This document shows, one piece after another, positions 53,126 through 59,991 of a stretch of DNA of 64,000 nt. A program made the translations under genes and the position numbers. This DNA is from a virus (Duplodnaviria; Caudoviricetes). Location of the stretch: the IMG/VR virus record IMGVR_UViG_3300030372_002840, positions 6,831-70,830 of that record; one strand, written 5' to 3'. Under the pieces are notes generated by a model. The model was given only the letters and a program-made list of their open reading frames with translations, ran no database searches and had not been told where the DNA came from. The stretch's first letter is position 1; every line of letters starts with the position of its first letter.

Positions 53126-53217
53126 AAGAAAGGGGGGAATGTGGGCATGTGATGCGTTTCAACGGTTATTCACACTTTTCACTAGTAACGCTTGGCCGTT
53201 CACAATTCCCCTTTCTT
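53126..53217 (-). ncRNA. Candidate structured cis-regulatory RNA upstream of the exonuclease
   Basis: 10-bp perfect closing helix AAGAAAGGGG/CCCCUUUCUU plus 6 more bp; inner AACGG/CCGUU and GCGUU/AACGC pairings. Confidence 0.5.
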
Positions 53218-53224
53218 ATTAATA

Positions 53225-57560: not shown

Positions 57561-58013
57561 TCATAAATTTTTAATTATTTCTATAGTTTCGAGTACCTGT
57601 TTTTGATTTTTAGGTACAAAGAGTTTGCAATCAGGATTAGTTTCCATTAAAAGCTTCTTAAACATTTTCCACTTAAGTGGGAATCTGTCATTAGCATAAC
57701 CTTTACATTCTATAATCCAGTCACGTTTAGGGCAAAGAAAGTCAGGCGTATATGTTATTGCTCTAACCTTTTCTTCTCCTCTATTTCTATATCCTTTTGT
57801 TGATTGTTGATAAGCATCTGAAGTATAATAGAATCCATCAAGAAGTGTGTATTTTTCACTTTCGTATTCTTGTTTAATACCAGCTTCTTTTAGCTTTCTA
57901 TAAGTAAATGCTTCTAATTTTGATCTAAATTTTATTCCGTCTACTTCTGTTTTCTTACTCTGTATCTTTCCTTTCTTCCGTTTTCTGGTTTTTGATCTCG
58001 CGTATCTTTTCAT
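57561..58013 (-). CDS. PD-(D/E)XK endonuclease (T7 endonuclease I / Holliday-junction resolvase-like)
   Basis: DGIKFRSKLE, YESEKY, ITYTPDF, IIECKG. Confidence 0.8.
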   Translation of the reverse strand: MKRYARSKTRKRKKGKIQSKKTEVDGIKFRSKLEAFTYRKLKEAGIKQEYESEKYTLLDGFYYTSDAYQQSTKGYRNRGEEKVRAITYTPDFLCPKRDWIIECKGYANDRFPLKWKMFKKLLMETNPDCKLFVPKNQKQVLETIEIIKNL

Positions 58014-58968
58014 ATATAAATGTTTTTACTTTTTCAAACCCATGAACGACAATGGCGTCAGATATGTCCTTTGCACCCCAATCACTTGGGATATATAGAT
58101 TATCTAATTGATATTCACGACATATCTTTTTAGCCATTGCCTGTCCGGGGGTATCATTATCGTAAAAGATAATTACTTTTTTAAATCTGTTTAACAACAA
58201 CTGCATTTGCACTCTGCTGGGTACTTGCATTTCGGACTGCAACGCAACTCCGCACAATTGCATGGCGAACAGGCACATAACATCCTTAAGGGAAGATGTA
58301 ATATAAAGGAGCTCACCCTTATCAGGAAGTTGATTGTAGCCCTGTATGATTTTTTTATTAGTGTTGCTAAACCACTTAAGATCTGTTTCATAAGGCGCAT
58401 AAAGTTTAAATTTGTTACCGAACCTAAAGGCATAAGTTATTGTTTTACAAGAGAATCTGCTCTCGTTAATCCAATAGTAGTCTATGGGCTCAACTGCAAA
58501 GGTAGTTAAAATTTCCTTAGTTAATCCAAATTTCATCCAAAATATTGCATCTTTAGTATACCACGGCCTCCTTTTCTTTTTGATTACAGTGACTTTTTTG
58601 TCAATCTCTTGTTTACCATACAGTTTAGGAGTCTTGGATTGCACTATTCCATTCGTACTTGCCAGTTTAAGATTAAAATCAGTGCTAATTCTAATTAAAG
58701 CTTCAGTAAATGTAACACCATACTTAAATTGAACATAACCAAAACAATTAAATGTGTGGTCTGGGTATCCAAAATCTTTGTATAGTAAATTACCATTATA
58801 GTTAACAATAGAAGCTGAAGGTCTTTTATCTTCTCTCAGCTCACTGCAAAACTTTTTATTAAGCTCTATAAATCTAGGACAATAAAATTTAAATATATCA
58901 AACTCTGTTATTTTTTCTAATATTACATCTGTATGTAATATATCATTACTTGGTCTTGATGTTATCAT
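57955..58968 (-). CDS. dnaG: DNA primase (DnaG-like, crAss type)
   Basis: CSELREDKRPS...YKDFG...NCF N-terminal domain, Toprim LYITSSLKDVM...FYDNDTPG, KDISD; start reassigned to ATG 58968. Confidence 0.82.
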   Translation of the reverse strand: MITSRPSNDILHTDVILEKITEFDIFKFYCPRFIELNKKFCSELREDKRPSASIVNYNGNLLYKDFGYPDHTFNCFGYVQFKYGVTFTEALIRISTDFNLKLASTNGIVQSKTPKLYGKQEIDKKVTVIKKKRRPWYTKDAIFWMKFGLTKEILTTFAVEPIDYYWINESRFSCKTITYAFRFGNKFKLYAPYETDLKWFSNTNKKIIQGYNQLPDKGELLYITSSLKDVMCLFAMQLCGVALQSEMQVPSRVQMQLLLNRFKKVIIFYDNDTPGQAMAKKICREYQLDNLYIPSDWGAKDISDAIVVHGFEKVKTFIYEKIREIKNQKTEERKDTE

Positions 58969-58984
58969 ATCTATGTGTGTTAAT

Positions 58985-59099
58985 AAGAAAAAGGAGACAC
59001 CTTGGGGCTCTGCTTCCATTATTTCCGCTACCCAGGTCCATAACGTCAGTGTCATGATTAACGTAGACTCCGCATTCTTCAGAGAATCCCCTATTTCTT
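58985..59099 (-). ncRNA. Candidate switchable structured RNA immediately 5' of primase
   Basis: 14-position closing helix with one mismatch; competing GGGG/CCCC + CUCUG/CAGAG helix; hairpin CAUGAC/GUUAUG. Confidence 0.45.
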
Positions 59100-59100
59100 T

Positions 59101-59210
59101 ATAGTAAGTAAAGGATGAGTAAGCACCCTTTACTGTAAACTAAATTTATTAGCTGGTTTATTATGTCCTTGCGGGCCAGCCAATAACTCCTTCTTACTAA
59201 GGCTTACTAT
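59101..59210 (-). ncRNA. Candidate four-way-junction RNA with loop-loop kissing
   Basis: P1 8 bp, P2 4 bp with loop AGUAAG, P3 11 bp, P4 10 bp with loop CUUACU; G.U pairs favour the minus strand. Confidence 0.6.
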
Positions 59211-59217
59211 TATCCCG

Positions 59218-59991
59218 CTAGTTTGAAAATGGTAATTCTTCAGTATTATTACTATCTACTCCCCACTCTTCATTCTCGTCAGAATCTGGAGTAACTACTG
59301 CTAATACTGGTTTGAATTCACCCCACTGAAGATCTGTATTGAACTCAGCGTTAAATGCACCATACTCGTCATTTAATGCTTTTACAAATAAATCATCTCT
59401 TTGTGGCTTAACTCTACCAAACACTCTAGTATAGACTTGTTGATATTTACCATCTTTAACACCAATTAATAATCTAACTTTGTTATCTTTCAAAGCAGTA
59501 ACTAATTGTTTTAGCTCTGTGACATCACCTGTTACTATTTTATCAATAGTATCAAAGTATACATTGTCACCAGGAGCAACATTAGCCCATGCCTTAACAA
59601 AGTTAATTAATGTTTCTTCGCCAGTAAATGCTTTTCTAGATGTTTCAGGCTTTTGCCACCAGTCGTAGCTAGGAGTATCTTCACTCCATGTACCTTGACC
59701 TGTAGCATTTAACCATTGAAACTTACCAGTCTTGCTAGTTCTGTGCTTATTCTGCATTAAAATTTCTAATCTAGTTGTTAGATCTTCATTTTTAACCCAA
59801 AATACTAGTTTAAAGTAATCTTCACCATTTAATTCTAAATGATAGTTAGGTTCTTGTTTAACTTTTATATCCATTTTATGCAATTCATCCATTGTAGGAT
59901 TAACTGCCATGATATTAAAATTACTTAAACCAGAATAGCTTTTAATACTATTCATTACCTCTTCGTTTGAATTGTTGCTGTTTATAGCCAT
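59218..59991 (-). CDS. crAss-like putative ssDNA-binding protein
   Basis: YSGLSNFNIMAVNPT, KTGKFQW, acidic C-terminal tail ending EELPFSN; position between the AAA ATPase block and primase. Confidence 0.6.
   Translation of the reverse strand: MAINSNNSNEEVMNSIKSYSGLSNFNIMAVNPTMDELHKMDIKVKQEPNYHLELNGEDYFKLVFWVKNEDLTTRLEILMQNKHRTSKTGKFQWLNATGQGTWSEDTPSYDWWQKPETSRKAFTGEETLINFVKAWANVAPGDNVYFDTIDKIVTGDVTELKQLVTALKDNKVRLLIGVKDGKYQQVYTRVFGRVKPQRDDLFVKALNDEYGAFNAEFNTDLQWGEFKPVLAVVTPDSDENEEWGVDSNNTEELPFSN

What the first reader, a model, noticed from the sequence alone, without database searches (positions are those of the whole stretch)
59101..59210. Intergenic four-way-junction RNA with complementary kissing loops between ssb and primase
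Seen (minus strand): P1 AUAGUAAG(59210-59203)/CUUACUAU(59108-59101); P2 CCUU-[AGUAAG]-AAGG (59202-59189); P3 UUAUUGGCUGG/CCAGCUAAUAA, 11 bp (59186-59146), with an internal CC-GCAA-GG; P4 GUAAAGGGUG-[CUUACU]-CAUCCUUUAC (59133-59108). The P2 loop AGUAAG is the exact complement of the P4 loop CUUACU. The non-Watson-Crick pairs in P3 and P4 are G.U only on the coding strand. It lies in one of just two gaps over 100 nt in 64 kb. I cannot match it to a riboswitch or ribozyme class I know. Inference: a new ncRNA or cis-regulator, or a structured ssDNA replication origin/primase site.
Basis: partly seen in the sequence, partly recalled or inferred. Interest (0 to 1): 0.8.

Follow-up and report, generated by a model that had tools for sequence, protein, structure and literature searches.

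The report
New pseudoknotted kissing-loop RNA in phage
The gap between an SSB-like gene and the primase gene of an uncultured marine crAss-like phage holds a real, evolutionarily maintained RNA fold (a pseudoknot plus two hairpins with complementary loops) that matches no catalogued RNA family. It is one of several interchangeable structured RNA modules that related phages carry at this same spot.

Summary
The helices exist exactly where reported, on the minus (coding) strand. Seven further distinct copies, four subtypes in all, occur in related marine phage contigs. Across them P2, P3 and P4 keep pairing through compensatory changes: 93% of cells paired, 17 pairs changed on both sides, 0 of 500 shuffles as good. 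The two 6-nt loops AGUAAG and CUUACU are invariant and complementary.

Three corrections:
- P1, and hence the four-way junction, is specific to the window's subtype.
- The "CC-GCAA-GG" mini-hairpin is better read as one strand of an H-type pseudoknot. GCGGG, which starts in the stop codon, pairs with CCCGC directly 3' of the P3 5' strand. This pairing covaries.
- The true gap is 249 nt, because primase starts at ATG 58968.

All 15 non-Watson-Crick pairs are G.U and none is A.C, so the fold belongs to the coding strand. Rfam gives no hit at E<=10, and it is not a tRNA.

Most relatives have no gap here, because the stop overlaps the ATG. Others carry simple hairpins or other covarying modules (B, C, D, G, H). 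The element is therefore accessory, which argues against an essential origin.

The phage shares synteny with phi14:2, whose replication module is transcribed early by the virion RNA polymerase.

Best reading: a new cis-acting structured RNA module that punctuates the early operon. Its function is inferred, not shown. The scan has not noted this element on other DNA.

The parts
59101..59218 (-). Module A: the whole conserved RNA fold (leader, P1, P2, P3, P4)
   Evidence: Covariance-model hit 59082-59223, 182 bits; pair counts
59214..59218 (-). Pseudoknot PK1, 5' strand GCGGG. Its first G is the last base of the upstream gene's TAG stop.
   Evidence: 5/5 pairs in all 8 copies. 3 of 5 pairs change on both sides (GCGGG/CCCGC, GCAGG/CCUGC, GGGGA/UCCCC, GGGGG/CCCCC). 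Not part of the search model.
59171..59175 (-). Pseudoknot PK1, 3' strand CCCGC, directly 3' of the P3 5' strand (0-nt linker, H-type geometry)
59203..59210 (-). P1 5' strand AUAGUAAG (holds the first AGUAAG). Pairs with 59101-59108.
   Evidence: 8/8 here and in L002 (one G.U), 6/8 in L101, absent in the L140 and L027 types. 68% of cells paired.
59101..59108 (-). P1 3' strand CUUACUAU (holds the second CUUACU)
59189..59202 (-). P2 hairpin: 4-bp stem, invariant loop AGUAAG (59198-59193)
   Evidence: 100% paired, 2 of 4 pairs change on both sides (CCUU/AAGG, CCUU/AGGG, ACAU/AUGU, ACAU/GUGU)
59146..59186 (-). P3 hairpin: 11-bp stem, 19-nt loop holding the PK1 3' strand
   Evidence: 6 of 11 pairs change on both sides. 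The stem sequence is wholly replaced in L101 while the loop is kept.
59108..59133 (-). P4 hairpin: 10-11-bp stem, invariant loop CUUACU (59123-59118), complementary to the P2 loop
   Evidence: 100% paired, 4 of 10 pairs change on both sides, G.U at two positions
58985..59099 (-). Module G: a separate stem-closed element (GGGGAU...GUCUCC followed by U5) between module A and the primase start
   Evidence: Family members in L102, L115 and L138. In L002/L101 module A is followed by a different module instead.
57955..58968 (-). Primase gene with corrected start (ATG 58968-58966). The ORF's first 29 codons, back to 59055, run through module G and are not conserved.
   Evidence: Toprim and PHROG primase hits. 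Homologue alignments start at residue 30-31.
59218..59991 (-). Upstream 257-aa gene, the 'ssb' of the finding. SSB-like identity is only weakly indicated.
   Evidence: No Pfam or PHROG hit. Atlas lead to DUF669. AF2 pLDDT 60; best structural match the SSB-like PrgE, Z 6.0, rmsd 9.4.

Best explanation
Module A is a roughly 118-nt structured RNA domain of the phage's replication-operon transcript.

Shown:
- It folds as an H-type pseudoknot. Leader GCGGG pairs with the first five bases of the P3 loop and can stack on P3.
- The short P2 hairpin sits in pseudoknot loop 1, and a downstream P4 hairpin follows.
- The P2 and P4 loops are invariant and perfectly complementary.

Inferred:
- The loops kiss, tying P4 to the pseudoknot in one compact fold.
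- The fold acts in cis as intercistronic punctuation. It uncouples primase from the upstream SSB-like cistron, which in most relatives is coupled to primase through an overlapping stop/start. It would also set their relative expression.
- The likely means is a barrier that protects the upstream message's 3' end from exonucleases and/or damps read-through.

This element occupies the same niche that simple hairpin-plus-U-tract elements fill at this junction in other relatives, including phi14:2. It is accessory and exchangeable, and is swapped with other structured modules by recombination.
For: - Structure: covariation in P2, P3, P4 and PK1, loops invariant. PK1 was not in the search model, so its 100% pairing with 3 covarying pairs is independent of the model.
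- Strand: 15 G.U and 0 A.C cells. The minus strand folds better than the plus strand.
- Energy: the four-way fold scores -31.1 kcal/mol. Duplexes PK1 (-8.3) and L2/L4 (-4.0) would add to it. The nested MFE is -35.5.
- Niche:
  - 50 of 77 viral loci have a gap <= 15 nt with stop/ATG overlap. 13 have 60-99-nt hairpin-type gaps and 14 have >= 100 nt.
  - phi14:2 has a 49-nt hairpin followed by UAAUUUU at the syntenic junction.
  - All modules lie in the sense orientation.
- Modularity:
  - Combinations A+G (window), A+B (L002, L101), A+H (L140) and D+C+A (L027 type).
  - Module D is itself a covarying family of 18 sequences.
- Transcription context: in phi14:2 the replication module is the early class, made by the virion RNA polymerase, and early intergenic regions give abundant stable RNAs (bioRxiv 10.1101/2020.03.07.982082).
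Against: - There are no expression, end-mapping or stability data for this phage.
- P4 is followed by a U-tract only in the L140 and L027 subtypes, not in the window. Its stem base is A/U-rich, so it is a poor intrinsic terminator. The terminator scan found nothing here.
- A simple hairpin would suffice as a decay barrier, so the elaborate conserved tertiary design hints at a more specific role.
- The element's position relative to the stop codon and to the primase start differs between subtypes.
- The kissing interaction has no covariation support, because the loops never vary.
- There are only 8 sequences in 4 subtypes, and the alignment was fitted to P2-P4.
Confidence: 0.42

Rival explanations
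1. Autonomous stable non-coding RNA. The module is processed out of the early transcript and acts in trans. Possible roles are a decoy against host defence, a tRNA-like or polymerase-binding RNA, or a new self-cleaving ribozyme that cuts the polycistronic RNA.
For: - The module is compact and self-contained. It is gained and lost as a unit and combined freely with other modules.
- The invariant loops plus a covarying pseudoknot make a design more elaborate than a barrier needs.
- phi14:2 makes abundant, persistent non-coding RNAs from early intergenic regions. One of those regions encodes a tmRNA.
- From my own knowledge, arrays of different small structured RNAs in phage DNA recall the clustering of self-cleaving ribozymes.
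Against: - Apart from the two loops, which pair with each other, and the G/C runs of PK1, almost no unpaired nucleotides are conserved. That is unlike ribozyme or aptamer cores.
- No known ribozyme or other Rfam family matches at E <= 10.
- No promoter or defined ends could be identified.
Confidence: 0.25
2. Regulated switch. The leader/P3 region alternates between the pseudoknotted fold and a nested helix that consumes the P3 5' strand, in response to a ligand, a protein (for example the upstream SSB-like protein, as T4 gp32 binds its pseudoknot operator) or the terminating ribosome. This would tune primase expression or termination.
For: - The nested MFE of the window, L140 and L123 copies pairs the leader plus UAAU with the P3 5' strand plus the C-run, instead of forming P3.
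- In L140 that helix is followed by UUAAUUUUU.
- The PK1 5' strand begins in the stop codon, so a terminating ribosome must melt it.
- In the L027 type the module ends 18 nt before the primase AUG.
Against: - The alternative helix is not consistently supported by covariation. L101's 13-bp P3 dominates its fold.
- In the window, L002, L101 and L140 another module lies between A and the primase start, so A is not a fixed expression platform.
- No conserved ligand-pocket nucleotides are seen.
Confidence: 0.13
3. Single-stranded DNA signal. The minus-strand DNA folds into three hairpins that serve as a priming or origin signal, like G4-type or ssi sites, or expose single-stranded template for the virion RNA polymerase.
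For: - There are three hairpins next to the primase gene.
- Strand-specific wobble pairs would also fit ssDNA of the same strand.
- The phi14:2 virion polymerase prefers single-stranded templates, and no promoter motif is known for it.
Against: - The element is absent from most related phages and from four near-complete relatives, so it is not an essential origin.
- The GC-skew turn lies elsewhere.
- A covarying pseudoknot and G.U pairs are typical of RNA.
- For transcription of this operon the template is the other strand, where every G.U becomes an A.C mismatch.
Confidence: 0.08
4. DNA-level repeat: an inverted-repeat protein-binding site (AGTAAG ... CTTACT), a miniature mobile element, or chance palindromes in A+T-rich DNA.
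For: - Four copies of the hexamer lie within 106 nt, arranged two direct plus two inverted.
- The element is distributed in a mosaic pattern.
Against: - Stems covary while loops stay fixed, the reverse of terminal inverted repeats.
- It is single-copy in its genome and always in one orientation.
- Spacing between the two conserved hexamers varies from 73 to 82 nt.
- Only two of the four hexamers are conserved across subtypes.
- 0 of 500 shuffles match the pairing.
Confidence: 0.04

Closest known systems
Intercistronic hairpin elements of phage operons (simple hairpin plus U-tract at the same junction in relatives and in phi14:2; more broadly, T7 RNase III sites and 3' stabiliser hairpins, from my own knowledge)
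   Same: Same genomic niche: sense strand, between two genes of one operon. Some subtypes have a U-tract after the last hairpin.
   Different: Module A is a multi-helix pseudoknotted fold with invariant complementary loops, not a single hairpin. In the window there is no U-tract after P4. No processing or termination has been shown.
   Same: Two hairpin loops with Watson-Crick complementarity flank a central helix. In the window subtype the topology is cloverleaf-like (P1 to P4).
   Different: No Rfam or ARAGORN match. Stem lengths are unlike tRNA. No conserved ligand pocket is seen. Whether the kiss is intra- or intermolecular is unknown.
H-type pseudoknots with stacked stems, for example the T4 gene 32 operator pseudoknot and exonuclease-resistant viral RNAs whose 5' end is tucked into the fold (from my own knowledge)
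   Same: The leader pairs with the loop of the next hairpin with a 0-1-nt linker. The third loop is A-rich in the window type. It lies next to an SSB-like gene.
   Different: It lies downstream, not upstream, of the SSB-like gene. A hairpin is embedded in loop 1. No protein binding or nuclease resistance has been tested.
Abundant early-region non-coding RNAs of Cellulophaga phage phi14:2 (bioRxiv 10.1101/2020.03.07.982082)
   Same: Same phage group and the same early replication-module strand. The RNAs are structured and their function is not established.
   Different: No sequence similarity to module A (R2 search of L254/L255). They lie at other positions, and one region is a tmRNA gene.

Membership tests
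Any Rfam 15 family (including riboswitches, hammerhead, twister, pistol, hatchet, HDV-like, pRNA, marine IMES motifs) | Covariance-model match at or near the gathering score | tested here: not met
   0 hits at E <= 10 on window 58500-59700. 0 hits at E <= 1 on ten related loci that carry the sister modules.
tRNA / tmRNA | Cloverleaf with canonical arm lengths and conserved D and T loop nucleotides | tested here: not met
   ARAGORN finds none in the window. P3 and P4 stems are 11 bp. P1 is not conserved.
Intrinsic (factor-independent) terminator | G+C-rich stem immediately followed by a U-tract | tested here: not met
   No terminator-like site at 59101-59218. The window's P4 is followed by UUACUAU, and its stem base is A/U-rich. 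A U-tract is present only in the L140 and L027 subtypes.
H-type pseudoknot | Bases 5' of a hairpin pair with that hairpin's loop, with a short or absent linker between the stems and the pairing maintained in evolution | tested here: met
   PK1 is 100% paired in 8 copies, and 3 of 5 pairs change on both sides. The linker is 0-1 nt in all subtypes.
Kissing-loop complex | Complementary hairpin loops | tested here: met
   AGUAAG and CUUACU are 6/6 complementary in all 8 copies. The duplex scores -4.0 kcal/mol.
Kissing-loop complex | Loop-loop pairing shown by compensatory change or by probing | tested here: inconclusive
   All six loop pairs never vary. Scans for P4 stems with any other loop found only unrelated palindromes.
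Riboswitch / ribozyme core | A set of invariant unpaired nucleotides in junctions that form a pocket or active site | tested here: inconclusive
   Invariant positions are almost all in L2, L4, PK1 and the inner P4 stem, and the junctions vary. With only 4 subtypes, absence of a core cannot be proven. Activity is not testable here.
Miniature mobile element (MITE-like) | Conserved terminal inverted repeats, several copies, either orientation | tested here: not met
   Single copy in its genome. Stems covary rather than being conserved. All copies are in the sense orientation.
Replication origin / ssDNA priming signal | Conserved presence among related genomes; initiation mapped to the site | tested here: not met
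   Conserved presence fails. The element is absent in most relatives and no skew turn lies here. Initiation mapping is not testable with these tools.

The most novel reading that the evidence does not exclude
The SSB-like/primase junction of marine crAss-like phages is a cassette site for a whole set of undescribed functional RNA classes: A, B, C, D, G, H and a roughly 330-nt element in L107. Module A would be an autonomous RNA with a specific activity. One candidate activity is a new self-cleaving ribozyme. Another is a regulator, such as a terminator, antiterminator or template-loading signal, tailored to the QDE-1-like virion RNA polymerase that transcribes this early operon. No regulatory signals are known for that polymerase.
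Probability: 0.15. Interest if true: 0.85.

Novelty: new variant of a known kind. Interest (0 to 1): 0.6.

Why it matters
crAss-like phages are among the most abundant viruses. Their early genes are transcribed by an unusual virion-borne polymerase for which no promoter, terminator or RNA signal is known. Here a specific junction of that early operon carries structured RNAs under clear selection. Module A has a pseudoknot-plus-kissing-loop design, and module D is widespread. None of them is in Rfam. They are concrete, testable candidates for how these phages control or protect early transcripts, or for new functional RNA classes. The modular swapping also shows that RNA domains, like protein genes, are exchanged as cassettes between related phages.

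Tried and rejected
- Rfam at permissive thresholds on the window and ten related loci: nothing.
- ARAGORN on the window: nothing.
- blastn of 2 kb against GenBank phages: no match.
- P4-hairpin pattern in IMG/VR: only the window type and the L027 type, plus chance hits.
- L2...P4 pattern in 185,579 prokaryote genomes: 0.
- Covariance models R1 and R2 over about 0.9 Mb of related loci, over phi14:2 (first 32 kb) and (R1 only) over four near-complete relatives: no copy beyond the eight.
- P4 stems with any loop, to look for loop covariation: only unrelated perfect palindromes.
- P1 as a family feature: rejected, 68% paired. A/U-only alternatives in other subtypes, such as AUUAAU/AUUAAU, are too likely by chance to count.
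- The CC-GCAA-GG mini-hairpin holds in the window and L101 (CC/GG to CU/AG) but not in the L027, L123 or L140 types.
- AGTAAG depletion in the window (24 against 55 expected): not pursued. The hexamer contains TAA, and dinucleotide shuffles ignore coding constraints.
- Sigma-70-type promoter scan: not enriched (66 found, 55.5 expected), nothing notable here.
- An AACTT-AGTAAG-AAGTT hairpin in some loci lies inside the primase coding region, so it is chance.
- Similarity between phi14:2 non-coding regions and the modules: only 11-16-nt chance matches.
- Identity of the upstream protein:
  - Pfam, PHROGs and PDB sequence searches were empty.
  - Foldseek gave nothing at E <= 0.001.
  - VIA gave only a weak SSB-like top hit.
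  - tblastn against phi14:2 g035 gave no match.
- Literature searches for crAss-like structured RNAs: nothing relevant.

Full report
**What is in the sequence**

On the minus strand the upstream 257-aa gene ends with TAG at 59220-59218. The next called ORF (57955-59055) is a Toprim/PHROG primase. Thermodynamics alone is modest. The minus strand gives z = -2.44 and the plus strand gives z = -1.19. Rfam gives no hit at E <= 10, and there is no tRNA or tmRNA.

**The gap is larger than it looks, and it is an insertion**

The upstream protein has 195 relatives in IMG/VR and 239 in metagenome contigs, many from ocean surveys such as Tara.
- In these loci the primase alignment begins at residue 30-31 of the window's ORF. 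That is ATG 58968-58966, so the true gap is 58969-59217, 249 nt.
- In 50 of 77 viral loci and 40 of 73 metagenome loci the stop of the upstream gene overlaps or abuts the primase ATG.
- 13 viral and 19 metagenome loci have 60-99-nt gaps, made of simple G-rich/C-rich hairpins followed by U-tracts or slightly elaborated versions.
- 14 loci in each set have >= 100 nt.

The long gaps are mosaics of discrete stem-closed modules:
- A+G in the window and L001.
- A+B in L002 (99% identical upstream protein) and in L101.
- A+H in L140.
- D+C+A in the L027 type.
- C+D, E+D, D alone and B alone elsewhere.
- L107 has a 689-nt gap.

Module H is the element at window 53149-53224, in front of the exonuclease gene. 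Modules therefore also move between sites. None of the modules hits Rfam.

**Module A is a conserved fold**

A covariance model built from the window and L002 found exactly eight distinct copies (E 1e-39 to 2.5e-8) in 461 kb, and nothing else of significance. A second model built from all eight found no more in about 0.9 Mb. The eight copies fall into four subtypes: window/L001/L002, L101, L140, and L027/L125/L123/L082.

Pair counts on their alignment:
- 93.3% of cells pair, against 81.1 +/- 1.3% in shuffles.
- 17 pairs change on both sides, and 0 of 500 shuffles reach this.
- Partners slid by 1-3 columns pair at only 41-50%.

Per helix:

| Helix | Pairs | Pairs changed on both sides | Cells paired |
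|---|---|---|---|
| P2 | 4 | 2 | 100% |
| P3 | 11 | 6 | 94% |
| P4 | 10 | 4 | 100% |
| P1 | 7 | 2 | 68% (window subtype only) |

In L101 the P3 stem sequence is entirely different, while the P3 loop is kept almost letter for letter. The alignment was fitted to P2-P4, which inflates their pairing somewhat. The hand alignment gives the same pairs.

Five bases starting in the stop codon (GCGGG, 59218-59214) are complementary to CCCGC (59175-59171), the first five bases of the P3 loop.
- The pairing is kept in every copy with compensating changes: GCAGG/CCUGC in L101, GGGGA/UCCCC in the L027 type, GGGGG/CCCCC in L140.
- This gives 100% pairing, with 3 of 5 pairs changed on both sides. These columns were not in the model, so the result is independent of it.
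- The 3' strand follows the P3 5' strand with a 0-1-nt linker. The distance from the G-run to L2 is fixed at 20 nt.
- This is the geometry of an H-type pseudoknot with stacked stems and P2 in loop 1.
- Nested MFE predictions instead extend the leader helix at the expense of P3 in some copies. A conformational alternative therefore cannot be excluded.

**Kissing loops**

L2 and L4 are invariant in all eight copies, while the stems under them change. That invariance, with 6/6 complementarity, is strong circumstantial evidence. It is not proof, because there is no covariation. Two IMG/VR scans for P4-type stems carrying any loop found only unrelated palindromes. In the window subtype both hexamers are duplicated, the second pair forming P1. 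L101 has lost the first AGUAAG, so P1 is dispensable.

**RNA or DNA, and which strand**

Among 285 scored cells there are 15 G.U pairs and no A.C. On the other strand all 15 would be mismatches. The fold therefore belongs to the coding strand. Several observations favour RNA over a DNA signal:
- The pseudoknot covaries.
- All modules lie in the sense orientation.
- The element is absent from most relatives, and from four near-complete related genomes.
- It is single-copy in its own genome.
- The GC-skew turn is at 51-52 kb, where the gene strand switches.

An ssDNA role for the same strand cannot be strictly excluded.

**Context**

- Its genome has the same order: DnaB, Sak4-like, a hypothetical gene, a 49-nt hairpin gap, then primase.
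- Its primase is 27% identical to the window's (E 9e-32).
- In phi14:2 the whole replication module is the early class, transcribed by the rifampicin-resistant virion polymerase.
- No promoter motif was found for that polymerase.
- Two early intergenic regions yield abundant, persistent RNAs of unknown function (bioRxiv 10.1101/2020.03.07.982082).

By inference the window's minus-strand cluster is the early operon of a marine crAss-like phage.

The 'ssb' label rests only on position after the AAA_24/Sak4-like gene plus weak leads:
- An Atlas neighbour cluster has DUF669 in 25% of its members.
- The AF2 model (pLDDT 60) has as best structural match the SSB-like PrgE, at Z 6.0 and rmsd 9.4.
- OB-fold ssDNA binders appear at Z 2.5-2.8.

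**Sister modules**

Module D was checked as a control for the claim that this is a hot spot of structured RNAs.
- It has 18 distinct sequences, and 10 of 14 predicted pairs show compensatory changes around a conserved GGUUAUACUUUG core.
- It also occurs at a second site about 3.3 kb downstream in more distant relatives.

**Interpretation**

Shown:
- A conserved, strand-specific, pseudoknotted RNA-type fold with invariant complementary loops.
- It is accessory and modular, and it has no catalogued family.

Inferred: it acts in cis on the early polycistronic RNA as punctuation between a presumably abundant SSB-like product and primase. It fills the niche that simple hairpins fill in relatives (confidence about 0.4).

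Rivals:
- An autonomous ncRNA, possibly a ribozyme or decoy: 0.25.
- A regulated switch: 0.13.
- An ssDNA priming or template signal: 0.08.
- A DNA repeat or chance: 0.04.

The main weakness of the favoured reading is that the design is more elaborate than a barrier requires. That is why the novel case is kept open.

**Novelty**

This is a new RNA motif. The general kind is known (structured intercistronic phage RNA; pseudoknot plus loop-loop contact), but the family and its architecture are not catalogued. The scan's earlier notes show nothing like it on other DNA.

Noticed in passing
window 58985-59099 (-); L102, L115, L138: Module G, between module A and the primase start, is a separate family. 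It has a closing helix GGGGAU/GUCUCC followed by U5 and a shared inner motif CACUGNCGYUAUGGA. Relatives in three other contigs sit at the same junction. The called primase ORF's first 29 codons run through it and are spurious.
   Followed up: partly
window 53149-53224 (-); L140:2916-3000: Module H, in front of the exonuclease gene, has a close look-alike in L140. There it sits in front of primase, right after module A. Modules therefore move between junctions.
   Followed up: partly
L191:2868-2966, L047:6081-6179 and 16 others (alignment A6): Module D is a widespread, strongly covarying RNA motif of this phage group. 10 of 14 pairs are compensatory around a conserved GGUUAUACUUUG core. It has no Rfam match and occurs at two different sites of the replication module.
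   Followed up: partly
L107:841-1529: A 689-nt gap at the same junction holds modules C and B plus a roughly 330-nt element closed by AAGGUUACUG/CAGUAACCUU. It is unexamined, and could be a larger ncRNA or intron-like element.
   Followed up: no
L254:4031-4500 (Cellulophaga phage phi14:2, NC_021806): ARAGORN calls a tmRNA gene (tag peptide GSSVQKLAMVA*) inside the long g004-g006 intergenic region. The phi14:2 transcription study reports abundant, persistent 'long non-coding RNAs' of unknown function from this area. The record carries no tmRNA annotation there.
   Followed up: partly
L003, L011, L015, L017, L027, L051, L107 (module C, e.g. L191:2762-2875): Module C (GAGGAGUGCUCGNCGUAAGUAG ... 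GCAUGUGAGAGCUCCUC) has long conserved single-stranded stretches and a variable insert. It looks more like a functional RNA core than module A does. It has no Rfam hit.
   Followed up: no
window 59218-59220; L001, L002, L101: The upstream gene ends in TAG only in the module-A window/L101 subtypes and in TAA elsewhere. The G of TAG is the first base of the pseudoknot stem.
   Followed up: no
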